Shown here piece by piece: positions 1 through 38,895 of a stretch of DNA of 64,000 nt. Position numbers and translations under genes: made by a program. The notes under the pieces were generated by a model, which worked only from the letters and a program-made list of their open reading frames with translations, ran no database searches and was not told the DNA's origin. Source of the stretch: Alphaproteobacteria bacterium (GTDB lineage: Bacteria; Pseudomonadota; Alphaproteobacteria; CAAHEQ01; UBA3637); contig SUUS01000002.1 of assembly GCA_015062395.1 (NCBI GenBank), positions 35,028-99,027 of the forward strand, written 5' to 3'. Positions within the stretch are counted from its first letter, which is position 1. Every line of letters begins with the position of its first letter.

Positions 1-53
1 ATTATTCGCGCAAATTGAACATTTAATTTTAAAAGGGAAAAAAGGAGTTTAAT

Positions 54-761
54 ATGGTAGAAAATTTAATGCAAATAAATGAAAAAAAACAAGAAGTTCC
101 TGCTAAATTTTTGGATGCAAAGGGTAATTTAAAGACGGATGTTTTATTGCAATCTTATTTAGAATTAGAAAAAAAATTAAGCAATATGGTAATGCTTCCA
201 AATGATGCATCATCCGAGGAAGAAAAGCGTTCCTTTTACCAAAAAATAGGGGTTCCAGACTGTGCTGAAAATTATCAATTAGAAATTAAACATGATTTAT
301 TGGCTAGCGATCCCCAGGTAAATCAAAAATTATTTGATTTAAGATTTACAAATCAACAGGCTCAAGCCGTTTATGATTTGGCCGCAGAAAAAGTATTGCC
401 TGTGATTGAAGAATTAGCTCAAGATTACGAGGCTGCACGTCAACGTTTAGCTTTGGAAAATCAATTTGGAGGAAAAGAACGTTTTGAACAAGTCTCACGT
501 CAAATTACAGCATGGGCCAAACAAAATGTATCTACGGATGTTTTTGATGCATTGTCAACAACTTACGAAGGGGTGATGACTCTTTATAAAATGATGCAAA
601 CAAATGAACCTGTAATGATGCCAAAAGGCATTTGTTCTCATGAAATTTTAGATGAAGAAGGGTTAAAAAAATTGATGATGTCGCCAAAGTATTGGAAAGA
701 ACAAGACCCTTTGACATTGAAAAAAGTGGCAGACGGATTTAATCGTCTTTACTCGCATTAA
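54..761 (+). CDS. Phage scaffolding-like protein (T7 gp9 position)
   Basis: AGGAG RBS precedes the ATG at 54. Acidic, coiled-coil-rich 235-aa protein lying immediately upstream of a gp10-like capsid gene. Assignment is by position only. Confidence 0.35.
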   Translation: MVENLMQINEKKQEVPAKFLDAKGNLKTDVLLQSYLELEKKLSNMVMLPNDASSEEEKRSFYQKIGVPDCAENYQLEIKHDLLASDPQVNQKLFDLRFTNQQAQAVYDLAAEKVLPVIEELAQDYEAARQRLALENQFGGKERFEQVSRQITAWAKQNVSTDVFDALSTTYEGVMTLYKMMQTNEPVMMPKGICSHEILDEEGLKKLMMSPKYWKEQDPLTLKKVADGFNRLYSH

Positions 762-881
762 TTTAAAAGATAATCGCATTTAAGGCGACCTTTTATTTTC
801 TTTTTATGATGGGCGGGGAACCATAACCCGTTATAAAAAATTTTGTTTTTTGTTTTAACTAAAAAAAAGGATATAATAAAT

Positions 882-1700
882 ATGACTTCTACAACTATTG
901 ATGCAGCTTTTGTAAAACACTTCCAAGCAGAAGTAGTGACTGCATATCAACAAATCGGTTCTAAATTACGTTCAACAGTTCGTTCTAAAAATAACGTTGT
1001 TGGTGTCAGTACAACATTCCAATTAATTGGTAAAGGTAATGCAACAACAAAAGAACGTAATGGTGTTATCAGCGCTATGGAATTTGAACACAAACCTGTC
1101 GAATGTGTTTTGACTGATTATTATGCTGGCGCATGGGTGGATAAATTAGATGAATTAAAATTGGGGCACGATGAACGCAGAGCAATTGCTCAAACAGGTG
1201 CATATGCTTTGGGTCGTAAGACAGATGAGTTAATTATCAATGCTTTAAATTCGTCAACAAATACAGTTTCAGATTCTGCTGTTGAGTTGAATAAAGAAAC
1301 CATTTTAGACGCATTTACAAAATTAAATAATGCTGATGTTCCAGATGATGGAGAACGTTATGCTTTGGTTTCTCCTGCTCAATGGAATCAGTTGCTTAAC
1401 ATTGAAGAATTTTCTTCATCTAATTATGTTGGAGATAAAACACCATTTATCGCAGGAATTGAAAGCCGTAAATGGTTAGGTATTAATTGGATTATGCATA
1501 CTGGTTTACCAAGCGATACTGGTTCTCATACGTGTTTCATTTATCATAAAAATGCAATAGGTCATGCTGTGGGAATGGATATTAAAACAGATATTTCTTG
1601 GCATGGAGACCATGCAGCTCACTTTGTCAATTCAATGATGAGTCAAGGGGCTTGTTTGATTGATGAAAAAGCTGTTGTAAAAATAGTTTGCTCTGATTAA
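882..1700 (+). CDS. Major capsid protein, T7 gp10-like
   Basis: N-terminus FVKHFQAEVVTAYQQ...VRSKNN..FQLIGKG aligns by eye with T7 gp10 FLKVFGGEVLTAFAR...VRSISSGKSAQFPVLGR. Real start is the internal ATG at 882, which has an AAGGA RBS. Confidence 0.65.
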   Translation: MTSTTIDAAFVKHFQAEVVTAYQQIGSKLRSTVRSKNNVVGVSTTFQLIGKGNATTKERNGVISAMEFEHKPVECVLTDYYAGAWVDKLDELKLGHDERRAIAQTGAYALGRKTDELIINALNSSTNTVSDSAVELNKETILDAFTKLNNADVPDDGERYALVSPAQWNQLLNIEEFSSSNYVGDKTPFIAGIESRKWLGINWIMHTGLPSDTGSHTCFIYHKNAIGHAVGMDIKTDISWHGDHAAHFVNSMMSQGACLIDEKAVVKIVCSD

Positions 1701-1714
1701 TGTTTTTTGATGTG

Positions 1715-1743
1715 GAGGGGAATTTATTTTCCCCTCTTTTTTT
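1715..1743 (+). terminator. Rho-independent terminator immediately after capsid gene (T7 T-phi-like placement)
   Basis: Perfect 8-bp stem gaggggaa/ttcccctc with a 6-nt loop, followed by T7. Confidence 0.6.
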
Positions 1744-2322
1744 ATGGAGAGAAAAATGGCACAATCTGCAATTTCTTTATGCTCTAAAGCTTTGATTAAG
1801 TTGGGAGCGCATCCGATAATTTCTTTTACAGAAAATACAGCAGAAGCGCAAGTTGCATTACAACTTTACGAAGCAACCAGAGATGCATTATTATCATCGT
1901 ATCCGTGGCATTTTGCAACAGCTCAAGAAGAATTATCGTTGTTGCGCGATGCTCCTTGCGCTGATTATGCTTATGCGTATCGGTTGCCAAATGATTTTTT
2001 GCGTGCTTTATCTGCAGGGGTTAATTCAAATGGCAAAGGCTTGAACTATCGAATTTATGAACGGACCTTGCATTGCGATTCTAAAAACGTGGTGTTGACA
2101 TATATCTTTAATCCAAAAGAAGAAAATTATCCACCTTTTTTTGATTATGTATTGATTTTAAAATTGGCTGCCGAATTTTGTTTGCCTTTGACTGAAAACA
2201 GTTCAAAAGCAAAACATTTAGAACAAATGGCAAAAGAAGCATTTAATCAAGCAAAGCTAATCGATGCACAGCAAAATTTACCACAAACAATAAATCATTT
2301 TCCTTTAATCGAGGTCAGATAA
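1744..2322 (+). CDS. Tail tubular protein A, T7 gp11-like
   Basis: 192 aa (T7 gp11 is 196 aa). LIKLGAHPIISFTENTAEAQVAL...SYPWHF is comparable to gp11 [23 protein letters not shown]...SRGWTF. Correct synteny after the capsid gene. Confidence 0.6.
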   Translation: MERKMAQSAISLCSKALIKLGAHPIISFTENTAEAQVALQLYEATRDALLSSYPWHFATAQEELSLLRDAPCADYAYAYRLPNDFLRALSAGVNSNGKGLNYRIYERTLHCDSKNVVLTYIFNPKEENYPPFFDYVLILKLAAEFCLPLTENSSKAKHLEQMAKEAFNQAKLIDAQQNLPQTINHFPLIEVR

Positions 2323-4229
2323 TGAGTAATTTAATCAATTATAAAACAAATTTTACAGCAGGGGCTGTTTCGCTTGATTTATTAGGTCGAACGGATTTGT
2401 CAGCTTACGATAATGGCGCACTTGAATTAAAAAATGTTTTTATCAGTCCAATAGGAGGAATTGAACGCAGAGCTGGTTTACGTTATATAGATACAATTGA
2501 CAATGCATATCGTTTGATTGCTTTTGCTTTTAATACTGCCCAAACATATTTATGTGTGTTGGGTAATGCATTTATTAAAGTTTATAAAAATGAAAATTTG
2601 ATACAAACACTTTCAACTCCTTGGCAAACAGATGACATACCACATTTGCGTTGGACGCAAAGTGCAGATACTTTATTATTGACGCATCCAGATTATGAGC
2701 CAATGATGATGACACGTCAAAATGATGAAAGCTTTGTTTTATCAAATTGGGTTTTTGATATGGGGGATGATGGGCAAAAGTATTGTCCTTTTGAAAAATA
2801 TGCTTCTGCGCAATCGACAATGAAAGCTGTTGGCGATGGAAATAACGTTGTCTTAACTGCAAGTGAAGATGTGTTTAATGAAAATTATATCAATCGACAC
2901 ATCAAAGTTGGAAAAGGCGAATATAAGATTACAGAAATAACGGATGCAAAAAATGCGAAGGCAAGTAAAATTGTTTTGGCTGAAAATTCTAATCCAACAA
3001 CAAATTGGTCTGAAGAAGCTTTTTCAAAAGACCATGGTTATCCTGTTTGCGTGACTTTCTATCAAGGTCGATTAGTCATTGGTGGTTCCAGAGATTTACC
3101 AAATAAACTTTGGTTTTCAAAAAGTTTTGCGATTATGAATTTTGACACAGGAACAGGCTTGGATGATGAAGCTATCGGATTTAGTTTGTTGTCCGATCAG
3201 GTGAATGCGATTTGTGGATTAATGCCAGGCAGACATTTACAAGTTTTTACATCTGGTTCAGAATGGATGGTTTCTGGAGAACCATTGACTCCTCAAAACA
3301 TTCAGTTGAAGCGTCAAACTAAAATAGGTTCGCCTCTTTATCGATTTGTTCCTCCTGTGGATGTCAGTGGTGCAACGTTGTTTGTATCCGAAAATGGACA
3401 AGAAATCCGAGAATTTTTATTCGCTGATTTAGAACAAGCTTATCAAGCGAAAAATGTTTCGTTATTGTCATACCATTTGATAAATAGACCCATCGATATT
3501 GACTATGATGCAAAACGCAGATTGGTTTATGTTATTATGGAAGACGGTTCAATGGCTTCGCTTACAAACTATCGTTCAGAAGAAGTGTTAGCTTGGAGTT
3601 CGCATGAAACACAAGGTAAATTTTTGTCTGTTTGTGTGTTAGAAGAGGAGGTTTACTTTTTAATCAATCGAGATGGAAAAACTTATTTGGAGGTTTTTGA
3701 TAATGAGGTCTTTACGGATTGTGCTTTTTTAGGGCAATCAGAAGAAGCTCATGAAACGTGGTCTGGTTTGTCGGTTTTGGATGGTAAAAAAGTAAATGTT
3801 GTTGCTGATGGAAGATTGGAAGAAAGCGTGGTAATATCTTCGAACAGCATCACATTATCACAAAAAGCAAAACAAATTCAAGTTGGTCTTGCTTATACAC
3901 ATACAGTTGTGCCTTTGCCACCGATTAAACAAATCGGTGTGGGCAATCTGCCATTAAAAGCCGTTCGTTTGGTGGAAGTTAATTTTAAAGTAATCGATAC
4001 AGCTTCTTTATTTTTAGATGTGGGGAATGGTTATAATGAATTTATCATTCAAAATGTAAATGATGATTACATATTGGATGGGGATGCAAAAGGTAAAACA
4101 AAAGATGTTTGTATCAGGGCGTTAGGATGGGTTCGAGACGGTGTTTCGCCTTTATGGAAAATACAAAGTACGCAACCTTTGTCCTGCAAGATTGTTTCTG
4201 TGGCAACATTAATGAAAGTGAGTGATTAA
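2322..4229 (+). CDS. Tail tubular protein B-like (T7 gp12 position), 635 aa
   Basis: Large ORF directly after the gp11-like gene with overlapping stop/start. Assignment is by synteny; sequence similarity is weak by eye. Confidence 0.4.
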   Translation: MSNLINYKTNFTAGAVSLDLLGRTDLSAYDNGALELKNVFISPIGGIERRAGLRYIDTIDNAYRLIAFAFNTAQTYLCVLGNAFIKVYKNENLIQTLSTPWQTDDIPHLRWTQSADTLLLTHPDYEPMMMTRQNDESFVLSNWVFDMGDDGQKYCPFEKYASAQSTMKAVGDGNNVVLTASEDVFNENYINRHIKVGKGEYKITEITDAKNAKASKIVLAENSNPTTNWSEEAFSKDHGYPVCVTFYQGRLVIGGSRDLPNKLWFSKSFAIMNFDTGTGLDDEAIGFSLLSDQVNAICGLMPGRHLQVFTSGSEWMVSGEPLTPQNIQLKRQTKIGSPLYRFVPPVDVSGATLFVSENGQEIREFLFADLEQAYQAKNVSLLSYHLINRPIDIDYDAKRRLVYVIMEDGSMASLTNYRSEEVLAWSSHETQGKFLSVCVLEEEVYFLINRDGKTYLEVFDNEVFTDCAFLGQSEEAHETWSGLSVLDGKKVNVVADGRLEESVVISSNSITLSQKAKQIQVGLAYTHTVVPLPPIKQIGVGNLPLKAVRLVEVNFKVIDTASLFLDVGNGYNEFIIQNVNDDYILDGDAKGKTKDVCIRALGWVRDGVSPLWKIQSTQPLSCKIVSVATLMKVSD

Positions 4230-4230
4230 A

Positions 4231-4542
4231 ATGGCGACTAAAGATTCTTTATTTTATGACTTAATTACAGGAGAAAATAAAACACAATTAAATTTAGAAA
4301 AACAAGCTACTTTATTGAAGCAACAAGAAAACATTAAAGAATACAAAAAAAAGCTGGGTTCATATCGTGCGAATATGGCTTCTCAAGGTGCAGGAGCTAA
4401 CTTATCCAGTGTTTTGGATGGATTGGCTCAAGACGTTGAAATTAAAAATAGTTTGGCAACGAATCAGCTGAATCAAAAAATCAGAAATGCAAACAGAACA
4501 AGACGTAAACAAACATTGTTGAATCTAGGATTAAAATCTTAA
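4231..4542 (+). CDS. Phage hypothetical protein (103 aa)
   Basis: ATG 2 nt after the upstream stop codon. Sits within the late module. No recognisable motif. Confidence 0.3.
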   Translation: MATKDSLFYDLITGENKTQLNLEKQATLLKQQENIKEYKKKLGSYRANMASQGAGANLSSVLDGLAQDVEIKNSLATNQLNQKIRNANRTRRKQTLLNLGLKS

Positions 4543-4558
4543 TTTTATCGAGATAAAA

Positions 4559-4849
4559 ATGAAACAGAATGAATTTGAAAAAGCAAAGGCAAAATTTTTA
4601 AAAATTTTGCCTAAAAAATTACAAGAAACTTTGCAAGCTTATCATCTGTTTACATCCGTTAAAGTTCCAGAAGATATTAAATCATTCGCAGCATATCATA
4701 CGGCTTGTAAAAATGCGTTGTCACATATGGTGTTGTTGATGAAAATGATACAGCTATCTGATTCAAATAATGCAAATAATTTGGTTGATGATTGGTTGGA
4801 AAAATCAAAGTTAGCTATTAGCCAATTGGAGGAAGAAGAGGATGAATAA
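4559..4849 (+). CDS. Phage small protein, possible small terminase subunit (T7 gp18 position)
   Basis: 96 aa with an acidic C-terminus. Overlaps the start of the large terminase by 8 nt. Assignment is positional only. Confidence 0.3.
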   Translation: MKQNEFEKAKAKFLKILPKKLQETLQAYHLFTSVKVPEDIKSFAAYHTACKNALSHMVLLMKMIQLSDSNNANNLVDDWLEKSKLAISQLEEEEDE

Positions 4850-6305
4850 TTTAAAAGCTTCTTTTACACAATTTGTTTGGATTTGGAATGAATTACAAGG
4901 TCTTCAATTACCAAAACATCATCGACGTATTTGTCATTTTTTATCAAGTAATTATTTGCAAAAAAAAGCTCATGCTTTATTGATGGCGTTTCGAAATTCC
5001 GGGAAATCAACTTTGGTTGGATTGTTTTGTGCATGGTTGCTTTATGAAAACAGCAATGTTCGCATTTTGATTATGTCAGCTGATTATGAATTGGCAAAAA
5101 AAATGGTTCGAAATGTTAAGCGAATTATTGAAAAACATCCTTTGACAGTACATTTAAAACCCAAACAAAAAGACCAATGGGCTTCTGACAGATTTACAGT
5201 TATTCGTTCTCAAGAATTAAGAGATCCGTCCGTTTTGGCACGAGGTATAGATGCAAATATCACAGGCTGTCGAGCTGATGTGATTGTTTGCGACGATGTA
5301 GAGGTTCCTAAAAACTGTGATACTCAAACCAAAAGAAATGATTTAAAAGAAAAATTATCTGAATTAGATTTTGTTTTAGTTCCGAATGGTTTTATGTTAT
5401 ATGTTGGAACGCCTCACACGCAAAAAACGATTTACGACGTCAGTCCGAACGGTTTTTTAAAGAACTTTAATCAATTAAAATTACCCATTTTAGATGAACA
5501 AGGGAATAGTAATTGGCCTGAACGATTTTCGTTGTTAAAAATAGAGGCTATTCGCAAACGAGCAGGACCGTTGAAATTTACCAGTCAAATGCTTCTTCAG
5601 CCAGTTAATTTAAGGCAAGGACATTTAAATACAGACAATTTGATTTTTTATCAGGATGCTTTGGATTATCGTCAAATTAATCAAAGCAGTGCAGTTTATA
5701 TTGGGCAAAGACAAATGATCAGCGCTAGTGCTTGGTGGGATCCATCTTTTGGTAAGTCGGATGCAGACAGAAGTGTTTTGGCGTGTGTTTTTTTTGATAA
5801 TCAAGGAAATGCTTTTGTTCATGATTTGGTTTATTTGACTGTTGAAAATGCAGAAAAATCAGCACAAATACAGTGTCAGAAAGTAGCTCAAATGATAAAG
5901 CTTTATCATTTGCCACAAATACGAATAGAAACAAATGGTATTGGAAAGTTTTTACCAGAGCTGTTAAAGCAAACATTGCAACAAATGCATATAGTATGTG
6001 CTGTTTTACCTGTTCATTCAAGCATTCCAAAATCGCTTCGAATTAGCGAAAGCTTGGATGCGCGTCTTGCCAGTTCTTCTTTGTGGTTGCATGAAAGAGT
6101 TAAACAAACGCCATTTATGGAAGAAATAACATCGTGGAATCCTCAAGCACAGAATATGCATGATGATGGTTTAGATGCTCTGTCTGGTTGTTTGTCGAGT
6201 GAACCAGTTCATATTGCAAAGCATTTTATTCCCATTCAGCCAGAACCCGATTGGCGCTATGGACAGATGATTAATAATTTTAATTTAGATGATGTAAAAC
6301 TTTAA
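4842..6305 (+). CDS. Terminase large subunit
   Basis: Walker A-like FRNSGKST near the N-terminus. Acidic catalytic patches VIVCDDVEVP. The C-terminal nuclease half has conserved D residues. Size 487 aa. Confidence 0.75.
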   Translation: MNNLKASFTQFVWIWNELQGLQLPKHHRRICHFLSSNYLQKKAHALLMAFRNSGKSTLVGLFCAWLLYENSNVRILIMSADYELAKKMVRNVKRIIEKHPLTVHLKPKQKDQWASDRFTVIRSQELRDPSVLARGIDANITGCRADVIVCDDVEVPKNCDTQTKRNDLKEKLSELDFVLVPNGFMLYVGTPHTQKTIYDVSPNGFLKNFNQLKLPILDEQGNSNWPERFSLLKIEAIRKRAGPLKFTSQMLLQPVNLRQGHLNTDNLIFYQDALDYRQINQSSAVYIGQRQMISASAWWDPSFGKSDADRSVLACVFFDNQGNAFVHDLVYLTVENAEKSAQIQCQKVAQMIKLYHLPQIRIETNGIGKFLPELLKQTLQQMHIVCAVLPVHSSIPKSLRISESLDARLASSSLWLHERVKQTPFMEEITSWNPQAQNMHDDGLDALSGCLSSEPVHIAKHFIPIQPEPDWRYGQMINNFNLDDVKL

Positions 6306-6319
6306 AATGGAGATTTTTT

Positions 6320-6742
6320 ATGAACAGAAATTTTTTTAATACGGCTGATGTGTTGGCGCGTACACTGTACGGTGAAGCCAGAGGCGAAGGGCTTATTGGA
6401 ATAGAAGCTGTCGCTTGTGTGATATTGAATCGTGTAGCTCTTTCAAAGCAGCACGCTTTTTGGTGGGGCAAAACGGTGGAGGAAGTTTGCCTAAAACCTT
6501 TTCAATTTTCTTGTTGGACACCATCCGATGCTAATTTTTATAAATTAATTCGAGTTAATGCGCAAGATGCTGTTTTTCGGATGTGTCAACGTGTCGCAGT
6601 TCGAGCATTAAGTGGAAACTTGCCTGATATAACAAAAGGTGCAACACATTATCATTCAAAGAATGTTAATCCTGCATGGGCTCGAAAATTAACACCGATT
6701 TTTGAATACAAAAATCATCTGTTTTATAAGGAGGTCTATTAA
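6320..6742 (+). CDS. Cell-wall hydrolase, SleB/Hydrolase_2 family (endolysin)
   Basis: TLYGEARGEG...AVACVILNRV...FQFSCW motif block typical of the SleB-like hydrolase family. Lies directly after the terminase. Confidence 0.7.
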   Translation: MNRNFFNTADVLARTLYGEARGEGLIGIEAVACVILNRVALSKQHAFWWGKTVEEVCLKPFQFSCWTPSDANFYKLIRVNAQDAVFRMCQRVAVRALSGNLPDITKGATHYHSKNVNPAWARKLTPIFEYKNHLFYKEVY

Positions 6743-7029
6743 TGACGCAATTTGAATTAGAAATTGGAAAGTTAATGGCGCAATTTGACAGTTTGCAACA
6801 GCAACTGGATAATGTCAGCAAAGGGATGGATAGGACAAATAAACAATTAATGCGTTGGCACCAAGATTTTGATAACTTTACAGGAGATATTATGGAAAAA
6901 ATGGAAAAACGTTTTGTTTTACGTTCGGAAATAGCTCCAATAAAAGCGATTTTGTCTGTGATTGCTGTTGCAACAGTCAGTGCTATTTGTTTAAGTTTGT
7001 CCGAATTAATTTTTAACAAATTATTTTAA
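6742..7029 (+). CDS. Holin-like membrane protein
   Basis: 95 aa with an N-terminal coiled coil and a single C-terminal TM (IKAILSVIAVATVSAICLSL). Overlaps the endolysin stop. Confidence 0.35.
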   Translation: MTQFELEIGKLMAQFDSLQQQLDNVSKGMDRTNKQLMRWHQDFDNFTGDIMEKMEKRFVLRSEIAPIKAILSVIAVATVSAICLSLSELIFNKLF

Positions 7030-12264: not shown

Positions 12265-12323
<59 letters not shown>

Positions 12324-12340
<17 letters not shown>

Positions 12341-12836
12341 AAAAAACCGTCCGAAAGGGCGGCTTTTTTGTATGTGTGCGTAAGGCGAAGAACTCGAAAG
12401 AGGGCGTGGCTTGAAAATCTTCCAAGAAGGACGATTTTCAAACGCAAGCCCAATGATACCTTATGTTTGATAGACCATGGCAATGGTCGCATCAAACATT
12501 AGTTTCCATTGCACGAAATTTTTCTGAAAGAAAAATGTGCCTCCACGCGCCTACCAAAAAAACCGTCCGAAAGGGCGGCTTTTTTGTATGTGTGCGTAAG
12601 GCGAAGAACTCGAAAGAGGGCGTGGCTTGAAAATCTTCCAAGAAGGACGATTTTCAAACGCAAGCCCAATGATACCTTATGTTTGATAGACCATGGCAAT
12701 GGTCGCATCAAACATTAGTTTCCATTGCACGAAATTTTTCTGAAAGAAAAATGTGCCTCCACGCGCCTACCAAAAAACCGTCCAGAAGGGCGGCTTTTTG
12801 TATGTGTGCGTAAGGCGAAGAACTCGAAAGAGGGCG
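12324..12836 (+). repeat. Tandem 216-bp direct repeats (2 full + 81-bp partial), each starting with the last 17 nt of tRNA-Lys (att-like)
   Basis: Unit = cctccacgcgcctacca + terminator hairpin ccgtccgaaagggcgg + about 175 bp. Copies start at 12324, 12540 and 12756 and are near-identical. The third copy diverges after 12836. Confidence 0.85.
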
Positions 12837-28919: not shown

Positions 28920-31900
28920 ATGAAAAAAATAAATATATACATAATAAAGCAATTATTGCTCGGATTTGTTTTAATAGCTTTGGGAATGACAGCCTTGATT
29001 TGGCTGTCTCAAAGCTTGCGTTTGATTGATTGGATTGTCAACAAAGGTGTTTCTGTTAATTTATTTATTGAATTGACATTGCTTGTCTTGCCGAATTTTA
29101 TCGCAATTATTACACCTTTGGCGTTTTTTATTGTGTTGTTGTTTATTTATCAACGTTTGTTGGCAGACAGAGAGCTAATTGTCATGAAAGCCGCAGGGAT
29201 GTCAGCTTTTGATTTGGCAAAGCCAGCGTTATTTGTTGCCGTTTTGTTGACTGTTTTGGGATATTTTTTAACCCTTTGGTTGGTTCCTTATTCAGTGTCT
29301 CAATTTAAAGAATTGCAATTTAAAATTCGAAACAATTTGGCTCAAGTTGCTATACAGGAAGGAGAATTTAACCAACTGCCGAATAACATAACGGTTTATG
29401 TTCGGGAATTTAAACCATCAGGACATTTAAAAGGTATTTTAATACACGATGATAAAAACCCAGAAAAACGAGTCGTTATTGTCGCGCAAGAAGGCCGTTA
29501 TTTAATGTCTGACGGTAAGGCAAAAATTGATATGCTAGAAGGAACGCGTCAAGAATATGACCGTCAAACAGGGGCATTCAATTCTTTAAGTTTCCAAAAA
29601 AATGTCGTCGTTTTTGAAGAAAGTAAAAATAACAAAGTCAGAACAAGGGGTGAAGAAGAATTAACGTTAAAACAGTTGTTAGCTGCGCGTTCTGATGATG
29701 AAAATATAAAGCCACTTCAGTATCGTGAATATAAGGTTGAAGCTTTTAAACGCTTAACACAGCCATTGTACGCATTGGCATATTTGTTTGTTGGATTATT
29801 GCCTTTGTTGTTGGGACATTATAATCGTCGTGGACAAAGTGGGCGTGTTTATTTTGCTGTTGGATGCGTTGTTTTATTACAGTCAATGGCGTTGGGATTT
29901 GAAAATTTATCTAATAAAAATTTGTGGTTTTTAATTTTGATGGCAGCTAATTTATTGATTCCGATTGTCGTTGGTTTTGTCATTTTAAAAAGGGGGCGTT
30001 TGAGCTTAAAAAATAATATCCTCAACAAATTTTTAGCGCGCTTTTTTATCGTTTTAGCTTTGTTCTTTCCAACGCCTATTTTTGGTGCTTCGAATGTTCA
30101 GTTCGTTTCAGATACTCAAATTCATAAAGATGCACCAGTCGATTTTGAAGCAGATAGTATTTCTTACAGTCAAAATGCCCAAGTTATGACTGCTACTGGA
30201 AACGTTATGCTGAATCAAAAAGGGACTGTTTTGCAAGCTGATAAATTAGTTTATAATCAGCAAAGCGAACAAGGGATGGCACAAGGAAACGTTGTGTTGA
30301 CACGTCCAGACGGGGTTAAATTATACGCAAAAAGTGCAGAATTGTCTGAAAATTTTAATAATGCATTATTTGAAGATGTTTCACTAAAATTAGCTGATGG
30401 TTCAACCTTTAGTTCGCAGTCTGTCGTTCGAAAAGATAATGGCAATACATCTGTTTTTGATAAGGCATTTTTTACACCTTGTACTTATTGTACGCCAGAA
30501 AAACCTTTATGGGATATATCAGCGCAACAAATTAAACACGACTATGCGCAACAAGAATATGAATTTTATCATGCTTTTTTTGATGTCAAGGGAGTTCCTA
30601 TTTTTTACTGGCCATATTTAACATTTCCAGATTTTCAAGTTAAACGAAAAACGGGTTTTTTAACGCCTTCTTTAGCTAATTCAACAGAAATGGGATTTGG
30701 ATTTGAATTGCCATTCTTTTGGGATATTTCAGATTCTCAAGACTTATATTTAGAGCCAATCATAACAGGTCGTCACTTTCCTTTAATTCAAGGGCAATAT
30801 CGTGGAATTTATCATCAATCGCAATTAATGACGTCTTTTTCGATGACAAAAGATGATGATGATAATAATAAAGAAGGTCATATTAAAATCTATTATCAAA
30901 ATGATTTAACATCTTCATTGCGTTTTACTGGGCAGTATTATCGTGTTAGCAATCAAACATATTTTCGACGTTATCCGATTAATAATGTTGACGATCAAGA
31001 ACCGTGGATTAAAAGTTTCGGTAAGTTAGAGTATTTTGGTGCGCAAAGCTATGGATTTTTGAATGTGATGGATTTTCAAAATTTACGTCGTTATGTTTCA
31101 AATGATTCGATGCCTATTGTCAGTCAGATAGACTATTCTTATACAAGCAAGCCAATTTGGAAAGGGTTATATTCTGTTTCAACAATCAATGGTGCTGATA
31201 TTTACAGAAAAACAGAAGAACGTTCTACGCGTTTGTCATTCGAACAGTCTTTTGTTTTACCGTACATTTCATCATGGGGGCTTGTTTTTGAAAACAAGCT
31301 ATCTGCCAGAGTAGATGGTTATGCCTTGCGTTTTGAAGATAATCGTTCAACGAATCAAGGACGCTTTTATACAGTGGCATCTTCGAAAATCAGTTATCCT
31401 TTGGTGTCTTATGGCAAAAATTATAGTCAAGTTATTGAACCTGTTTTAATGGGCGTTTTAAGTCCAAATTCTAAACCAGATAATCGTATTCCAAATGAAG
31501 ATAGTTTAGATGTTGTTTTTGATGACGTTAATTTATTTTCGGCAAACCGATATGACGGTTATGACAGGGTTGAAACAGGTACTCGCTTAAATTATGGTTT
31601 ATTGTGGCGTTTGTATGGTCCTAAAAATATGTACTTATCTGCAATGCTTGGGCAATCCTATCGTATTCGAAGAGATAATACGTCTATGGCAAATGCTGGT
31701 TTTGAACGTCATTTTTCGGATTATGTTGGATATTTGAATATGGACTTTAAAGATTTTGGTTTAGGATACCGTTTTCGCTTTAACCAAGAAGATTTTAGTC
31801 AGGAAATGTCCGAGGCGCGTTTTTACATAGGAAGAAATCCTTTAAAATTAAATGTTTCTTATTTGTATTTGAAAGCATCCAAGGAAGCTTTAATAAATAA

Positions 31901-32156
31901 AGCGCTCAAAGATAGGGAAGAAATTTATATTTCTGTCAACTCTAAATTAACACAAGCTTTTAGTTCTTTTGGGTATTATCGATACGATTTATCTAAAGAT
32001 GGTGGTCCAACAGAGGCTGGTGGGGGCTTGCAATACGATAATGAATGTATTAGTTTATTATTCACTGTAGAAAAAGAATTTACAAAAGATCAAAATTATA
32101 AAGGGGATACATCCTTTTATGTTCGATTGCTTCTAAAGACTTTGGGAGGTATTTAA
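28920..32156 (+). CDS. lptD: LptF/LptG-family permease fused in-frame to LPS-assembly protein LptD (1078 aa)
   Basis: Residues 1-360 form a complete YjgP/YjgQ permease (3 TM, periplasmic domain, 3 TM). The residues after that begin with a signal-peptide-like FLARFFIVLALFFPTPIFGA and continue as an OstA/LptD beta-barrel. No in-frame stop separates the two. A TTG at 30000 with a GGGGG RBS-like motif is a possible internal start. Confidence 0.7.
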   Translation: MKKINIYIIKQLLLGFVLIALGMTALIWLSQSLRLIDWIVNKGVSVNLFIELTLLVLPNFIAIITPLAFFIVLLFIYQRLLADRELIVMKAAGMSAFDLAKPALFVAVLLTVLGYFLTLWLVPYSVSQFKELQFKIRNNLAQVAIQEGEFNQLPNNITVYVREFKPSGHLKGILIHDDKNPEKRVVIVAQEGRYLMSDGKAKIDMLEGTRQEYDRQTGAFNSLSFQKNVVVFEESKNNKVRTRGEEELTLKQLLAARSDDENIKPLQYREYKVEAFKRLTQPLYALAYLFVGLLPLLLGHYNRRGQSGRVYFAVGCVVLLQSMALGFENLSNKNLWFLILMAANLLIPIVVGFVILKRGRLSLKNNILNKFLARFFIVLALFFPTPIFGASNVQFVSDTQIHKDAPVDFEADSISYSQNAQVMTATGNVMLNQKGTVLQADKLVYNQQSEQGMAQGNVVLTRPDGVKLYAKSAELSENFNNALFEDVSLKLADGSTFSSQSVVRKDNGNTSVFDKAFFTPCTYCTPEKPLWDISAQQIKHDYAQQEYEFYHAFFDVKGVPIFYWPYLTFPDFQVKRKTGFLTPSLANSTEMGFGFELPFFWDISDSQDLYLEPIITGRHFPLIQGQYRGIYHQSQLMTSFSMTKDDDDNNKEGHIKIYYQNDLTSSLRFTGQYYRVSNQTYFRRYPINNVDDQEPWIKSFGKLEYFGAQSYGFLNVMDFQNLRRYVSNDSMPIVSQIDYSYTSKPIWKGLYSVSTINGADIYRKTEERSTRLSFEQSFVLPYISSWGLVFENKLSARVDGYALRFEDNRSTNQGRFYTVASSKISYPLVSYGKNYSQVIEPVLMGVLSPNSKPDNRIPNEDSLDVVFDDVNLFSANRYDGYDRVETGTRLNYGLLWRLYGPKNMYLSAMLGQSYRIRRDNTSMANAGFERHFSDYVGYLNMDFKDFGLGYRFRFNQEDFSQEMSEARFYIGRNPLKLNVSYLYLKASKEALINKALKDREEIYISVNSKLTQAFSSFGYYRYDLSKDGGPTEAGGGLQYDNECISLLFTVEKEFTKDQNYKGDTSFYVRLLLKTLGGI

Positions 32157-35345: not shown

Positions 35346-35374
35346 TTTACATCCTTTCTTAAACGGAGTATAAT
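35346..35374 (+). promoter_or_regulatory. Near-consensus sigma70 promoter (TTTACA-17-TATAAT) upstream of T4SS-like island
   Basis: -35 at 35346-35351, 17-nt spacer, -10 at 35369-35374. A GAGGGAGG RBS precedes the first island gene. Confidence 0.4.
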
Positions 35375-35409: not shown

Positions 35410-36111
35410 ATGCATTTGAAACATCTTTTAACATCTGTTTGTTTGGTTTTGGCATTGAATATAGGTGTTTGTAAACCTGTGTTGGCGCGTCATGTGGTTT
35501 CTGACCCAGCAGCGACGGCAATGTCAATACAAAACTTGGTTCAAGATATTTTGGCTGTTGTTAAGAAAATCGCTGATTTGAATGAGTTTATCAAGCGTAA
35601 TACTAGTCAAGGAAGTATTGGTGCTATAGCCAATAAATTGGACTTTTCAAAAATGCAAAAAGAAGTTTTGGATGCTGCAAAATCTACTGTTCCTGAAACC
35701 TTAAAAGATGTTGGGTTTGAAGATATGATGAAAGATACGCAACAAATGATGTCTTTCCTTAAGGAGGATTTGATGCTTCCTTTACAGTCTTCATCGCAAG
35801 AGGAAGCACTGACGGATACGCAAAAGCAAGAACGTCTGGAAAAACGTCAAGATGTTAAAAATACCGCGATTTCTGATGCTTATGCAACTGCTGTTGCGTA
35901 TTTAAACAGAAAAACAAAAGCTCAAGAAGAAATTGTTAATCCGACTAAAAAAGTGGCAGGTAGTGCAGATACCATTCATGCAAAAGAAGGGGCTGCAAAC
36001 GAAGCTGCTTTAGCGCGATTAAATGAAGGAATTGAACGCAATGCATTGTTGGCTGAACTTTTGAAATTGCGTGCTGCAGAAGCTTTGGGAAATATACCGT
36101 TGGATGGTTAA
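35410..36111 (+). CDS. Secreted alpha-helical protein, VirB5/TrbJ-like candidate (paralog a)
   Basis: Signal peptide. 233 aa. Helical, charged composition. Paralogous to the next ORF (VQDILAVVKK/VQEIIEVVQN; SIGAIANKLD/EIGAIMPKVID). Confidence 0.3.
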   Translation: MHLKHLLTSVCLVLALNIGVCKPVLARHVVSDPAATAMSIQNLVQDILAVVKKIADLNEFIKRNTSQGSIGAIANKLDFSKMQKEVLDAAKSTVPETLKDVGFEDMMKDTQQMMSFLKEDLMLPLQSSSQEEALTDTQKQERLEKRQDVKNTAISDAYATAVAYLNRKTKAQEEIVNPTKKVAGSADTIHAKEGAANEAALARLNEGIERNALLAELLKLRAAEALGNIPLDG

Positions 36112-36138: not shown

Positions 36139-36843
36139 ATGTTGAAAACAAAAACTTTTATTTCTTCTTTTCTTTTAGGCGTGGTTTTGACGGCTTCTCC
36201 TGCTTATGCTGTTGTTGATATCGTTAAATTGTTGCAACATACATTGCGAAATGTGCAGGAAATTATCGAAGTTGTTCAAAATGAATCATCATTAAAAGAA
36301 TCTACAAATTATTCAAAGTTGCAAGGTGAAATTGGTGCAATAATGCCCAAAGTCATTGATTTAGGTTCGAAAGTAAAAGACGCTTCTTTTACGCCTGTTT
36401 TGCCCAGTGAAATTCAAGGTTTGTTGGGTGATAAAGGAATGGCTGCAGTTCCTCAACTCCGTTCATTTTTATCTAAAGATTTAAAATCTATCAATGTTGG
36501 AGATGTTGTTGGACAACGTGATGCTTTAGCAGCAATTAGTGAACAGATGAATTTGGGTGGTATTGAAGCTTTTAAAAACGGAAAAGAAGCAATGGCATTG
36601 CTGAATAAAGCGCCCAATGAATTGATGCAACAGCTCAGTGTTGCAACGGGCGCGAAAGATATGCAAAACAAAATTACTCAAGAAACAGGAAATAGTATCC
36701 AAATTTTAAAAAGTGATATTGCGATTAATCAGCATTTGGCCAGAAAAATTGAAACGCTGGCTCAAAGTTTAAGATTGGATGTTAAAAAAGGATTGCAAGA
36801 GGCTGGTAAACAGCTTACAGAAAATACAGGAGGTCAACAATGA
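36139..36843 (+). CDS. Secreted alpha-helical protein, VirB5/TrbJ-like candidate (paralog b)
   Basis: Signal peptide MLKTKTFISSFLLGVVLTASPAYA. 234 aa. Paralog of 35410-36111. Confidence 0.3.
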   Translation: MLKTKTFISSFLLGVVLTASPAYAVVDIVKLLQHTLRNVQEIIEVVQNESSLKESTNYSKLQGEIGAIMPKVIDLGSKVKDASFTPVLPSEIQGLLGDKGMAAVPQLRSFLSKDLKSINVGDVVGQRDALAAISEQMNLGGIEAFKNGKEAMALLNKAPNELMQQLSVATGAKDMQNKITQETGNSIQILKSDIAINQHLARKIETLAQSLRLDVKKGLQEAGKQLTENTGGQQ

Positions 36844-38879
36844 TGCGCTATTTAAAACAGTTTTTGGTTGTTTTGTTGATGCCTTTGTTTTTTTGTGGGC
36901 GTCCCGTTTATGCTGGCGAGGTTAATTCGCCCAGTGAAGAAGTTTCTTTCTTCGGGCATTTTATGCAAAAAATCAGTAAAACAGCTTTATATATTGAAAC
37001 CATAGCAGAAGGCGTCACGTACATTACCTCTATTGGGGAAGATGGGAACTCTTTTATGGGATTTTTGTCTTCAATGGCAGGGAATCTGGGACCTTTCCAA
37101 GATACGTTAAATTTTGGTGATGCAGGTCAGTTTGGTTCTTTATTGGATGGTGCTTTTGATACTGCTGGAGATATTTTAAGTGGTGATATTGATTGGAATA
37201 ATCTGGGCAGTACAGCTTTGGGTGTGACTGGACAAGCAGGAACTTTATTGATTGGTTCTGGGCACCCGATTGGTATTGTTGCTGGTTTTGCTGTAAAAAT
37301 CGGAAGTGATGTTGCAAACCATGCGATTCAAGGTGGCGATATGAGCTTTGGTTCGTTGGCTGGTGTCGTTTTGGTTTCAGGTGCAGAAGGCGCTATTAGT
37401 GGGTTAGCTGGTGGGGCTGGAGGTGGCGCTGCTGGTGCTGGGGGTGGTTTAAGTGGAATCCTCGGTGGCGCTGGTGGTGCAGGTTCTGGTTTGTCTGGAT
37501 TATTGGGGGGCTCTGGAGGACTTGGGAATCTGTCTAGTGCATTAGGTGGTTCTGGTGGGCTTGGTAATTTGGCGAGTGCATTGGGTGGATCTGGTGGACT
37601 TGGTAATTTAGCAAGTGCGTTAGGTGGTTCTGGTGGGCTTGGTAATTTGGCAAGTGCATTGGGTGGTTCTGGTGGACTTGGTAATTTAGCAAGTGCGTTA
37701 GGTGGTTCTGGTGGGCTTGGTAATTTGGCAAGTGCATTGGGTGGTTCTGGTGGACTTGGTAATCTATCTACTGCGTTGGGTGGTTTGACTGGTTCTGGAC
37801 TGTCGGGTTTAAACGGTCTTTCATCAGCATTAAGTGGTTCTGGTTTGTCTGGACTTTCTAGTTTAGTCAATGGTGGAGGACTTTCTTCTTTTGCTAATTT
37901 AAATTCTTTATCTGGTATTGCAGGTGCATCGAATTTATCCAGTTTACTTAATTCGTTCGGTTCAGGCAATGTTAGTGGATTGGCAAATTCTTTGGGTGGT
38001 ATAGATGTTAGTACTCTGGGACGGGTATTAAATAACGGGGATATGTCTTCTTTAGCTGGGATGTTAGGTGGCTCTAATTCTTCAGCGTTAGCTGGTATTT
38101 TTGGAAATGCTTTAGGCCAAATGGATGCATCTTCATTATCTTCTGTTTTAGGAAATACAGATATTAACAGTTTAGCATCGGCATTATCATCAGGAGATTT
38201 AAGCGCTTTACAAGGGGTTGATATTAATTCTTTGATGTCTGTAATGGGGAATGCAGATATTTCATCGTATGCTTCTCAAATGATGGGGAGTGGAACGACT
38301 GCAGGTTCGACAGATCCGTTAAGTTCTTATGCGCGTATAGCTCAAATTACAGAAAGTTATGGAGCACCTCAAGAAGACAAAGCGACTGCACAGAAGTATG
38401 TAAAAGAAGCATTCTTTTACAGTACGCACGAAAATGATGAAATTGATGGCGTGCTTTTAACAGAACAAGAAAATGCAAGAGATAAAATCATTCAAAATCG
38501 AAAAGCATATCAGCAAGAAGTTGTTTCTTTGGCATTAGCAACAGCTTATGAAAACAGAACAACTGCACATGAAGAAACAACAACACGTTATGGTGATTTG
38601 CGTTCTAATGTTGGTTCTGCAAAAACAATTAATGATAAAAAGGGGATGGAAGGTGCGATTACTCAAGAAGAAACGCGTCAAAGAATAACGTCGTTGTCTT
38701 TGGAACTAGCGTTGTTGGAGTTAGAATTGGTTGAAGATTTGCAAAAAGAACCTGAAAATTATATCATTGCAAGAACGGCTGAACAAATAACTGACGAAAC
38801 AAAAGAAAAAACATCTGAAATCGATTTTTTAGATGATGCAGGAAGCGTTGGGCATGCAGGTATTTTAGTCGATGGATAG
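36840..38879 (+). CDS. Secreted Gly/Ser/Leu-rich repeat protein (679 aa)
   Basis: Signal peptide. Eight tandem 13-aa units LGGSGGLGNLASA. Long SxLxxL low-complexity tract. Charged helical C-terminus. Confidence 0.5.
   Translation: MMRYLKQFLVVLLMPLFFCGRPVYAGEVNSPSEEVSFFGHFMQKISKTALYIETIAEGVTYITSIGEDGNSFMGFLSSMAGNLGPFQDTLNFGDAGQFGSLLDGAFDTAGDILSGDIDWNNLGSTALGVTGQAGTLLIGSGHPIGIVAGFAVKIGSDVANHAIQGGDMSFGSLAGVVLVSGAEGAISGLAGGAGGGAAGAGGGLSGILGGAGGAGSGLSGLLGGSGGLGNLSSALGGSGGLGNLASALGGSGGLGNLASALGGSGGLGNLASALGGSGGLGNLASALGGSGGLGNLASALGGSGGLGNLSTALGGLTGSGLSGLNGLSSALSGSGLSGLSSLVNGGGLSSFANLNSLSGIAGASNLSSLLNSFGSGNVSGLANSLGGIDVSTLGRVLNNGDMSSLAGMLGGSNSSALAGIFGNALGQMDASSLSSVLGNTDINSLASALSSGDLSALQGVDINSLMSVMGNADISSYASQMMGSGTTAGSTDPLSSYARIAQITESYGAPQEDKATAQKYVKEAFFYSTHENDEIDGVLLTEQENARDKIIQNRKAYQQEVVSLALATAYENRTTAHEETTTRYGDLRSNVGSAKTINDKKGMEGAITQEETRQRITSLSLELALLELELVEDLQKEPENYIIARTAEQITDETKEKTSEIDFLDDAGSVGHAGILVDG
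37507..37775 (+). repeat. Tandem 39-bp (alternating, 78-bp super-unit) coding repeats
   Basis: ggtggttctggtgg(g/a)cttggtaattt(g/a)gcaagtgc(a/g)tt(g/a), about 7 copies. Confidence 0.8.
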
Positions 38880-38895
38880 AAAGGGAGGTAATATA

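What the first reader, a model, noticed from the sequence alone, without database searches (positions are those of the whole stretch)
36840..38879. Secreted 679-aa Gly/Ser/Leu-rich protein with 39-bp tandem DNA repeats at the head of the T4SS island
Eight tandem LGGSGGLGNLASA units come from near-identical 39-bp repeats that alternate two variants (78-bp super-unit). They are followed by a long (S/N)xLxxL low-complexity tract and a charged helical tail. The protein is repeat-variable, exported, and co-localised with VirB5-like genes, so it is a good candidate for a surface-exposed pilus-associated adhesin or a variable antigen. The antisense Pro-rich ORF 37328-37969 is a mirror artefact of these repeats.
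Basis: seen in the sequence. Interest (0 to 1): 0.6.

Follow-up and report, generated by a model that had tools for sequence, protein, structure and literature searches.

The report
Repeat-variable VirB5-like type IV secretion protein
This gene of an uncultured gut alphaproteobacterium encodes an exported protein, probably a very divergent VirB5-type tip or minor-pilin subunit of a type IV secretion system, whose middle has grown into a glycine/serine/leucine repeat tract that differs in length between otherwise identical strains.

Summary
The ORF (36840-38879, 679 aa), its signal peptide, its strong ribosome-binding site and the 39/78-bp tandem array are real. There are 7 units, not 8. The protein belongs to a tiny unannotated family: 28 representatives among 1.84 billion proteins. 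The gene always lies third in a five-gene module (folD | ~230 | ~240 | X | ~250 | ~640) upstream of virB8-virB7-virB8-virB9-giant virB10-virB11, in the core chromosome rather than on an island.

The family has a conserved N-terminal helix and a conserved C-terminal helical hairpin. Between them is a hypervariable insert that carries different repeats in each lineage. Most members are 300-460 aa and lack the G/S/L tract.

The link to VirB5 is indirect. A distant syntenic ortholog passes Pfam's VirB5 threshold, on the segment that aligns with this family's N-domain. The family is paralogous to the 233-aa neighbour (hhalign 92%), and the neighbours weakly resemble canonical VirB5. The window protein itself matches no known family or fold.

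Four assemblies with 0-2 SNPs per 10-19 kb differ only in array length (7, 5, 5 and 3 units, in-frame 78-bp steps). This is either real hypervariability or short-read collapse.

Pilus-tip location and an adhesin or antigen role are inferred, not shown.

The parts
36840..38879 (+). ORF of 679 aa (NCBI MBE6449268.1, 'hypothetical protein', Alphaproteobacteria MAG), the subject of the finding
36828..36833 (+). Shine-Dalgarno AGGAGG, 6 nt before the ATG. The start codon overlaps the stop of the upstream gene (ATGA), which suggests translational coupling within an operon
   Evidence: read from the sequence
36840..36914 (+). Sec-type signal peptide, aa 1-25, with predicted cleavage VYA|GEV
   Evidence: read from the sequence; the same n/h/c pattern is seen in all homologs
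36915..37163 (+). Conserved N-domain (aa 26-108), a long helix. It aligns with residues 490-624 of P0027, the stretch that matches Pfam VirB5 profile positions 1-137
37164..37502 (+). Gly/Ala-rich, moderately hydrophobic segment (aa 109-221). Kyte-Doolittle maximum is 1.55, below transmembrane level. Shared only with P0009
37503..37775 (+). Seven tandem 39-bp units (78-bp super-unit) encoding LGGSGGLGN-L(A/S)(S/T)A. This is the copy-number-variable part: 7, 5 or 3 units in different assemblies
37776..38309 (+). Degenerate 12-aa repeats, [DN][ILMV][SN]SLxxxLGxx, about 14 units. This looks like the older part of the same periodic tract. AF2 models short helices separated by turns (pLDDT 50-74)
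38310..38876 (+). Conserved C-domain (aa 491-679): the YGxPQ..AQ.Y[IV]K..FFYS motif, then a long helical hairpin (H543-593, H597-636; pLDDT ~70-87). Paralogous to the C-part of the 233-aa neighbour
37328..37969 (-). Antisense Pro-rich ORF of 213 aa. It is a mirror artefact of the GGN-rich sense codons, not a gene
   Evidence: the tract is absent from most family members
35346..35374 (+). Best promoter-like site of the region (11 of 12 consensus positions), in the gap between folD and the first module gene. Candidate operon promoter
   Evidence: consensus match only
35410..36111 (+). Module gene 1: 233-aa exported helical protein, a paralog of the target. Its N-terminus, VVSDPAATA followed by a helix, is VirB5-like
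36139..36843 (+). Module gene 2: 234-aa exported helical protein, weakly related to gene 1
38896..39657 (+). Module gene 4: 253-aa exported protein. The true start is at 38896, behind a GGGAGG ribosome-binding site. Weak, nearly full-length hhalign match to VirB5
39654..41582 (+). Module gene 5: 642-aa exported protein of unknown family
41589..42227 (+). VirB8-like bitopic protein of 212 aa. It stays with the module even in L001, where the remaining virB genes lie elsewhere
42376..42567 (+). VirB7-like small lipoprotein (lipobox LMAC)
42586..45059 (+). virB8 (42586-43347) and virB9 (43437-45059)
45159..53635 (+). Giant 2488-aa VirB10 with beta-flower repeats (45159-52625), followed by virB11 (52646-53635)

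Best explanation
The gene encodes a Sec-exported, highly divergent VirB5-type subunit of a chromosomal VirB-like type IV secretion system in an uncultured gut alphaproteobacterium. It is one of four tandem paralogs.

Shown:
- The conserved N-terminal helix and C-terminal helical hairpin are the invariant scaffold of a small family.
- This scaffold is interrupted by a lineage-specific, repeat-prone insert.
- In this species the insert has grown to about 380 aa of 12-13-aa Gly/Ser/Leu repeats.
- The youngest part of the insert is a 39/78-bp tandem array that gains or loses 78 bp in frame. The likely mechanism is replication slippage or unequal recombination.
- Otherwise identical strains therefore carry 7, 5 or 3 units.

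Inferred by analogy with VirB5 (a pentamer on top of the VirB6 stalk that is pushed out at the pilus tip: PMC9259494) and with Bartonella TrwJ paralogs (surface-exposed and receptor-binding: PMC3406051):
- The scaffold docks the protein on the T4SS stalk or pilus tip.
- The insert projects outward as a flexible module of variable length that contacts the target cell or is seen by the host.
For: 1. Family anatomy. An N+C query recovers homologs of 360-405 aa that cover 93-97% of it and lack the tract. An exhaustive profile search finds only 28 representatives, each with a different repetitive centre.
2. Fixed position. The gene is third after folD and upstream of VirB8-like, VirB7-like, VirB8, VirB9, giant VirB10 and VirB11, in the window and in L002-L004 and L009. 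Partial views of the same order appear in L001/L005, L018 and L019.
3. VirB5 link.
   - P0027, the syntenic ortholog in L009, scores 27.5 bits against PF07996 (gathering threshold 24.7; E 5e-6) over residues 488-628, which correspond to profile positions 1-137.
   - Residues 490-624 of P0027 align to the core family's N-domain at 36 bits, and residues 611-790 align to the C-domain at 88.7 bits.
   - Family versus the 233-aa neighbour family: hhalign 92%, E 5e-7.
   - The 233-aa and 253-aa neighbour families versus 7 plasmid-borne proteins at the virB5 position (one annotated virB5, one a divergent positional candidate): 53-55%, E ~1e-4.
   - The VirB5-like N-terminal motif is present in the paralogs.
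4. The AF2 model has three long helices plus a small appendage; the C-domain has pLDDT 75-94.
5. Signal peptide, AGGAGG ribosome-binding site and overlapping stop/start codons.
6. Alleles of 7, 5, 5 and 3 units with 0-2 SNPs in 10-19 kb of flanks. The 7-unit allele lies on 6 contigs. The 5-unit allele comes from a JGI and an ENA assembly. The 5- and 3-unit alleles both occur in ENA assemblies whose contig names carry the same k141 prefix.
7. The differences between unit variants are all synonymous. A homologous 39-bp repeat is present at 2.3 copies in P0009's gene.
Against: - The window protein and 19 of the 20 relatives scanned with it give no PF07996 hit, even at E <= 10. NCBIfam gives nothing.
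- Direct hhalign of the family against my small VirB5 set is negative (0.8-3%).
- The N-domain is modelled with low confidence (pLDDT ~45-55).
- No virB2, virB3, virB4, virB6 or virD4 lies in the 64 kb, so the canonical position between virB4 and virB6 cannot be checked.
- The single Pfam hit covers a partly Ser/Gly/Ala-rich stretch.
- All alleles come from short-read metagenome assemblies, which can collapse tandem repeats.
- Localisation and function are untested.
Confidence: 0.5

Rival explanations
1. The protein is a T4SS accessory protein of a new family that is not homologous to VirB5. It would be a periplasmic or outer-membrane-associated structural component of this lineage-specific machine, for example part of a sheath or core-complex decoration next to the giant VirB10. 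The low-complexity centre would serve as a spacer that spans the periplasm or cell wall.
For: - The window protein matches no sequence family or fold.
- The five-gene module is unique to this clade: 28 representatives in 1.84e9 proteins.
- The fifth gene (642 aa) has no known counterpart either.
- The machine is atypical: a 2488-aa VirB10 with beta-flower repeats and a weak C-terminal SPOR match (below threshold) on VirB9.
Against: - P0027 passes the PF07996 threshold on exactly the segment that is homologous to the family's N-domain.
- The paralogs carry the VirB5-type N-terminal motif and give weak VirB5 hhalign matches.
- Even the protein at the virB5 position of the nearest plasmid T4SS (Microvirga) reaches only E 0.17 against PF07996. 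The absence of a hit is therefore expected for real VirB5 relatives in this clade.
Confidence: 0.25
2. The copy-number differences are assembly artefacts. Short-read assemblers would have collapsed a 78-bp-period array, and the tract would be an invariant, selectively unimportant low-complexity linker.
For: - All four allele-bearing sequences are metagenome contigs.
- The flanks are essentially identical (0-2 SNPs), as expected if one strain had been assembled differently.
- The deletions are exactly in register, as collapse would produce.
- By arithmetic, the L004 contig appears to end inside the 237-bp repeat array of virB10. That suggests repeats did cause trouble for this assembly.
Against: - The longest exact internal repeat is 96 bp. 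That is shorter than the apparent final k of 141 suggested by the k141 contig names.
- The 7-unit allele was assembled identically on 6 contigs.
- The 5-unit allele was obtained in a JGI and an ENA assembly, and ENA assemblies with the same k141 contig naming gave 5 units in one sample and 3 in another.
- The unit variants differ only synonymously, which argues that the peptide sequence is under selection.
- Other family members also carry young DNA repeats in the same region.
Confidence: 0.25
3. The protein is a secreted, membrane-active protein rather than a machine part: a Sec-exported substrate or an alpha-pore-forming-toxin-like factor. Its Gly-rich hydrophobic segment (aa 120-200) would insert into a target membrane.
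For: - There are moderately hydrophobic Gly/Ala-rich stretches, with Kyte-Doolittle values of 1.45-1.55 at aa 134-155 and 168-191.
- The scaffold is a long helical hairpin.
- An AhlC alpha-PFT chain appears among the non-significant Foldseek hits at E 1.9.
- PMC9259494 notes that VirB5 superposes on a pore-forming protein.
Against: - The hydrophobic segment is absent from nearly all family members.
- No fold match is significant.
- A fixed operon position among paralogs argues for a structural subunit.
Confidence: 0.08

Closest known systems
VirB5 / TraC / TrwJ minor pilins (Pfam PF07996)
   Same: - Sec signal peptide, and an N-terminal [IV]PV.D-type start in the paralogs and in P0027.
- Three long predicted helices with a variable part between the first and the last two.
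- The gene lies just upstream of virB7/virB8.
- One syntenic ortholog passes the Pfam threshold.
   Different: - The window protein itself has no detectable sequence or fold match.
- Its core is about 280 aa and it carries an insert of about 380 aa, against about 220 aa in total for VirB5.
- No adjacent virB4 or virB6.
- Four paralogs instead of one.
Bartonella Trw system: amplified trwJ (virB5) and trwL (virB2) copies that encode variant surface pilus components binding erythrocyte band 3 (PMC3406051, PMC2883598)
   Same: - Tandem diversified VirB5-like paralogs in an alphaproteobacterial, host-associated T4SS.
- A proposed role as variable, exposed contact proteins.
   Different: - Trw diversity comes from gene amplification, not from an internal tandem-repeat tract.
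- Trw copies are clearly recognisable VirB5 homologs.
- Here there are no functional data at all.
Other T4SS components that carry repeats: Helicobacter pylori CagY (giant VirB10 with repeat regions that recombine in frame; my own knowledge) and Anaplasma phagocytophilum VirB6-4 with tandem-repeat extensions (PMC7648143)
   Same: - In-frame repeat arrays inside T4SS structural proteins of host-associated bacteria.
- This same locus also has a CagY-like giant VirB10 with DNA repeats.
   Different: - A different subunit is involved (VirB5-like rather than VirB10 or VirB6).
- The repeats here are short (13 aa) and Gly/Ser/Leu-rich.
- A functional consequence of length change is unknown here.
Flagellin-type architecture: conserved N- and C-terminal helices with a hypervariable exposed middle. 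This is an analogy only
   Same: Conserved terminal helical regions flank a hypervariable, lineage-specific centre.
   Different: No homology. Polymerisation is not shown.

Membership tests
VirB5/TraC/TrbJ (Pfam PF07996 'T4SS') | Sequence match to the family model at or above the gathering score | tested here: not met
   The window protein gives 0 Pfam hits at E <= 10. Only the distant syntenic ortholog P0027 passes (27.5 bits against a threshold of 24.7). That P0027 segment aligns to the family's N-domain, so the homology is transitive, not direct.
VirB5/TraC/TrbJ (Pfam PF07996 'T4SS') | Cleavable Sec signal peptide followed by a long N-terminal helix | tested here: met
   Signal-peptide anatomy read from the sequence (R3, K6, hydrophobic core, VYA|G), conserved in the family. 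AF2 models helix 31-65 in the window protein and 31-69 in P0013, but the N-domain is modelled with low confidence. No dedicated signal-peptide predictor was available.
VirB5/TraC/TrbJ (Pfam PF07996 'T4SS') | Three-helix bundle with a globular appendage (TraC fold) | tested here: inconclusive
VirB5/TraC/TrbJ (Pfam PF07996 'T4SS') | Gene located between virB4 and virB6 in a virB operon | tested here: inconclusive
   The gene lies upstream of VirB8-like, VirB7, VirB8, VirB9, VirB10 and VirB11. No virB2, virB3, virB4, virB6 or virD4 is found in the 64-kb window. In the nearest plasmid T4SS (Microvirga), a 273-aa protein with a sub-threshold PF07996 match occupies the canonical slot.
VirB5/TraC/TrbJ (Pfam PF07996 'T4SS') | Pentamer on the VirB6 stalk and location at the pilus tip | not testable with these tools
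   Needs a multimer prediction with the genome's VirB6/VirB2 (not in the window), or an experiment.
Size-variable (contingency-type) surface proteins with in-frame tandem repeats | Near-identical in-frame tandem DNA repeats inside the coding sequence | tested here: met
   39-bp x 7.3 and 78-bp x 3.6 copies at 92% identity. The unit length is a multiple of 3.
Size-variable (contingency-type) surface proteins with in-frame tandem repeats | Copy-number polymorphism between closely related strains | tested here: inconclusive
   7, 5, 5 and 3 units are found in assemblies with 0-2 SNPs per 10-19 kb. All are short-read assemblies, so collapse cannot be excluded without the reads.
Size-variable (contingency-type) surface proteins with in-frame tandem repeats | Exposure on the cell surface | not testable with these tools
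   Only export across the inner membrane can be inferred, from the signal peptide.
VirB6/TrbL (considered because of the gene's position before virB7/virB8) | Polytopic inner-membrane protein with at least 5 transmembrane helices | tested here: not met
   Kyte-Doolittle hydropathy (19-residue window) never exceeds 1.55 outside the signal peptide. Short family members have no hydrophobic segments at all.

The most novel reading that the evidence does not exclude
An uncultured gut alphaproteobacterial lineage carries a chromosomal, Cag-like contact machine: four VirB5-like paralogs plus a 2488-aa lectin-repeat VirB10. In this reading, the tip subunit encoded here is a genuine contingency locus. 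Rapid in-frame gain and loss of 78-bp units would tune the reach or flexibility of a Gly/Ser/Leu helix-turn solenoid or elastic tether at the pilus tip. That would modulate attachment to host or partner cells or allow evasion of mucosal antibody, functionally parallel to the CagY repeat 'rheostat' but in a commensal and in a different subunit.
Probability: 0.2. Interest if true: 0.7.

Novelty: new variant of a known kind. Interest (0 to 1): 0.5.

Why it matters
If the reading is right, a previously unannotated protein family is a VirB5 derivative so divergent that standard models miss it. That adds a missing component to the T4SS of an uncultured, animal- and human-gut alphaproteobacterial clade.

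It would also be an example of a T4SS tip subunit that diversifies through an internal tandem-repeat tract rather than through gene amplification. Together with the neighbouring giant repeat-bearing VirB10, this points to a cell-contact machine under diversifying pressure in a gut commensal.

The array is a simple strain marker that can be typed by PCR, and it offers a testable candidate for host or partner-cell interaction.

Tried and rejected
Searches that gave nothing:
- Pfam and NCBIfam scans of the target and its four neighbours, including at E <= 10: no usable hit.
- PDB sequence searches with three profiles and with the C-part of P0027: nothing significant.
- The afdb50 library was not available.
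- A homolog search with the VirB5-like part of P0027 returned nothing, not even P0027 itself. A profile search with the 233-aa neighbour family found only clade members without Pfam labels.
- An exact-pattern scan of metagenome contigs for more alleles found none.
- The GTDB genome scan gave one relative only, a Hadza-gut MAG.
- R388 could not be fetched by accession. Canonical VirB5 sequences were taken instead from plasmids found with VirB11.

Ideas rejected:
- VirB6-like membrane protein: no transmembrane segments.
- A shared C-terminal sorting motif among the paralogs ('GGQS'-type ends): not consistent across orthologs.
- The antisense Pro-rich ORF as a gene.
- A horizontally acquired 'island': synteny is conserved within the core chromosome.
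- Direct hhalign of the family against the 253-aa, 234-aa and 642-aa neighbours: no signal.
Full report
**1. The observation**

The + strand ORF 36840-38879 encodes 679 aa. Tandem Repeats Finder reports one array at 37502-37785, read either as 39 bp x 7.3 copies or as 78 bp x 3.6 copies (92% matches, score 456). The core of the unit occurs six times in the window with at most one mismatch, and never in 100 shuffles.

Laid out in register, the array is seven 13-aa units (aa 222-312). Two DNA variants alternate. They differ at four positions, all synonymous third-codon positions, so the 78-bp super-unit encodes two identical peptides.

Downstream, about 14 degenerate 12-aa units of the type [DN][ILMV][SN]SLxxxLGxx continue to about aa 485. 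The tandem array is therefore the young end of a much longer and older periodic tract.

The N-terminus (MMRYLKQFLVVLLMPLFFCGRPVYA|GEV) has the charge, hydrophobic core and small residues at -3/-1 of a Sec signal peptide. This is read from the sequence; no dedicated predictor was available. An AGGAGG lies 6 nt before the ATG, which overlaps the stop of the upstream gene. The best promoter-like match of the region lies between folD and the first gene of the cluster (a consensus match only).

The antisense 213-aa Pro-rich ORF lies entirely within the GGN-rich tract, and most relatives have no such tract.

**2. Context**

The neighbours are as follows.
- Upstream: xerC/D-like, a fused lptFG-lptD, surA, ksgA, a small PF1765-like gene called in the near-identical loci L002-L004, and folD.
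- The module: five consecutive exported proteins of 233, 234, 679, 253 and 642 aa.
- The recognisable T4SS genes: a VirB8-like protein (212 aa), a 63-aa lipoprotein (lipobox LMAC), VirB8, VirB9, a 2488-aa VirB10 (TrbI domain plus beta-flower, DUF3659 and RHS repeats) and VirB11.
- Downstream: typA on the other strand.

No virB2, virB3, virB4, virB6 or virD4 lies within the 64 kb. GC content is 0.36-0.41, against about 0.35 elsewhere.

The same order from lptFG-lptD to folD and through the module is kept in relatives that share only about 68-69% DNA identity:
- L001/L005, a Hadza human-gut MAG labelled 'uncultured Alphaproteobacteria';
- L009, where the T4SS genes follow as in the window;
- shorter contigs L018 and L019.

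This is therefore an ancestral chromosomal locus, not an island, and the target is the third gene of the module rather than its head.

The closest plasmid VirB11 (41% identity) belongs to a Microvirga plasmid T4SS with the canonical order B2-B3-B4-[273 aa]-[228 aa]-[428 aa]-[58-aa lipoprotein]-B8-B9-B10-B11-D4. Its 58-aa lipoprotein is homologous to the window's 63-aa ORF (E 1e-11).

**3. The family**

The window protein is NCBI MBE6449268.1, 'hypothetical protein', from an Alphaproteobacteria MAG. A query made of its N- and C-terminal parts found two things:
- two proteins that are 100% identical outside the array but 26 and 52 aa shorter;
- relatives of 360-405 aa (35-39% identity, 93-97% coverage) that lack the G/S/L tract altogether.

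An exhaustive HMM search of 1.84 billion representatives returned only 28 hits.

The alignments show a conserved N-domain (aa ~26-108 here). They also show a conserved C-domain (aa ~491-679) with the motif YGxPQ..K.AQ.Y[IV]K..FFYS and the block DDKKA.EA.I.QEETRQR. Between the two domains, the sequence is unalignable and differently repetitive in each lineage: SGYAQNAQQT in P0010, QGQV in P0015, RDT-rich in P0016, and GGSGIDS in P0009.

P0009's gene carries a homologous 39-bp repeat at 2.3 copies, and P0027's gene has an 81-bp x 2.1 repeat. The centre is therefore a recurrent site of repeat birth, and the window's lineage has the largest expansion.

**4. What the scaffold is**

Pfam, NCBIfam and PDB sequence searches give nothing for the window protein.

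The link to a known family is indirect and has four parts.

(i) P0027 (793 aa) occupies the same third slot in L009. It scores 27.5 bits (E 5e-6) against Pfam PF07996, the VirB5 family, whose gathering threshold is 24.7 bits. The match covers residues 488-628 and profile positions 1-137.

(ii) A profile of the core family built without P0027 aligns to residues 490-624 of P0027 (36 bits, N-domain) and to 611-790 (88.7 bits, C-domain). The VirB5-matching stretch is thus the counterpart of the window protein's N-domain.

(iii) Local hhalign shows the family to be paralogous to the 233-aa neighbour family (92%, E 5e-7). The other local hhalign results are weaker:
- the 233-aa family aligns with the 234-aa family at 43%;
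- the 233-aa and 253-aa families match a set of seven plasmid proteins at the virB5 position at 53-55% (E ~1e-4).

(iv) The mature N-termini of the paralogs and of P0027 carry the VirB5-type start followed by a long helix. Examples here are VVSDPAATA, GFPVLD, TPLPVFD and GIPVVE; canonical proteins have QVPVLD, GIPVAID and QIPVTD.

Against this, direct hhalign of the family versus the VirB5 set is negative (0.8-3%). The same set, however, detects the Microvirga protein at the virB5 position at only 18%, and that protein reaches only E 0.17 against PF07996. Sensitivity in this clade is therefore poor. I put the probability of true VirB5 ancestry at roughly 0.6.

**5. The repeat tract**

The full-length AF2 model (mean pLDDT 54.6) draws each 13-aa unit as a 10-residue helix followed by a 3-residue Gly turn. 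The degenerate 12-aa units appear as similar short helices with pLDDT 55-74. This is a weak hint of a helix-turn solenoid rather than pure disorder.

Hydropathy never reaches transmembrane level outside the signal peptide, which rules out a VirB6-like protein.

**6. Variability**

Four independent contigs can be compared with the window.

| Locus | Source | Units | SNPs outside the array |
|---|---|---|---|
| L006 | JGI 3300018475 | 7 | 0 (identical over 8 kb) |
| L002 | JGI 3300024268 | 5 | 2 in 16.7 kb |
| L003 | ENA ERZ27248370 | 5 | 0 in 10.4 kb |
| L004 | ENA ERZ27248436 | 3 | 0 in 19 kb |

The only difference inside the gene is the loss of one or two 78-bp super-units, exactly in register. 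The 7-unit protein is recorded on 6 contigs.

Several points favour real variation:
- the 7-unit and 5-unit alleles are each reproduced across independent assemblies;
- the 5- and 3-unit alleles both come from ENA assemblies whose contig names carry the same k141 prefix;
- the longest exact internal repeat is 96 bp, below the apparent final k of 141 in those contig names.

Two points argue against it. All sequences are short-read assemblies, and an in-register deletion is also what collapse would produce. I put real variability at about 0.7.

Because the step is a multiple of three, this would be size variation, not on/off phase variation.

**7. Mechanism proposed**

Shown:
- the protein has an export signal and belongs to the operon;
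- the family has a conserved scaffold interrupted by a hypervariable insert;
- the array differs in length in 78-bp steps between assemblies with near-identical flanks.

Inferred:
- The scaffold assembles like VirB5. VirB5 forms a pentamer on the VirB6 stalk and is pushed out at the tip of the growing pilus (PMC9259494).
- The insert projects outward as a flexible or solenoid module of variable length that contacts target cells or is exposed to host immunity.
- Bartonella TrwJ paralogs are a precedent: they are surface-exposed and bind erythrocyte band 3 (PMC3406051).

Repeat-bearing T4SS subunits are known in VirB6-4 of Anaplasma (PMC7648143) and in CagY of H. pylori (my own knowledge). Here the repeats sit in a different subunit.

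**8. Verdict**

The protein is best described as a new, strongly divergent variant of the VirB5 kind that carries a repeat-expanded insert, probably variable in length. It belongs to an uncharacterised family restricted to uncultured gut Alphaproteobacteria. Function and localisation remain to be tested.

Noticed in passing
window 28920-32156 (+); also L001 1937-5179 and L009 1765-5001: A single 1078-aa ORF combines the inner-membrane LPS permease domain LptF/LptG (aa 7-355) with LptD_N and the outer-membrane LptD barrel (aa 659-1011). The same fusion of 1078-1080 aa is conserved in distant relatives. One polypeptide joining an inner-membrane and an outer-membrane component of the Lpt bridge is unusual.
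   Followed up: no
window 45159-52625 (+): The VirB10 is a 2488-aa giant. It has a C-terminal TrbI domain (aa 2173-2366) preceded by about 14 beta-flower repeats plus DUF3659 and RHS-type repeats. A 237-bp x 3.3 DNA tandem repeat lies at 50289-51073. By arithmetic, the L004 contig appears to end inside that array. The architecture resembles CagY.
   Followed up: partly
window 12265-12836: A 216-bp tandem repeat (2.4 copies, 98% identity) begins at the 3' end of tRNA-Lys(CTT) (12265-12340). Its unit contains a terminator-like hairpin. It may be a duplicated attachment site or a remnant of an integrated element.
   Followed up: no
window 1-7000: Phage-derived genes: T7-type capsid assembly protein, major capsid protein and a cell-wall hydrolase. 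This is a prophage or a remnant at the window edge.
   Followed up: no
window 42376-42567 (+): A small lipoprotein ORF (lipobox LMAC, conserved 'SPCAC' motif), too short for the default ORF listing, lies between the two VirB8 genes. It is homologous (E 1e-11) to a 58-aa ORF at the VirB7 position of the Microvirga plasmid pMVF16-3 T4SS. It is probably the VirB7 of this system.
   Followed up: yes
window 43437-45059 (+): The VirB9 is long (540 aa) and has a weak C-terminal match to the peptidoglycan-binding SPOR domain (E 0.0028, below threshold). The Microvirga VirB9 is similarly long at 550 aa.
   Followed up: no
window 38872-39657 (+): The mechanical ORF start at 38872 is probably wrong. A GGGAGG ribosome-binding site precedes the ATG at 38896, orthologs align from there, and gene callers chose that start. 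The downstream gene therefore encodes 253 aa and does not overlap the target.
   Followed up: yes
L001 13934-21212: In the Hadza-gut relative, the five-gene module plus the VirB8-like gene is followed not by virB7-B11 but by an OMP and [FeFe]-hydrogenase genes. The module and the rest of the T4SS can therefore be separated in the genome, and the organism is probably an anaerobe.
   Followed up: no
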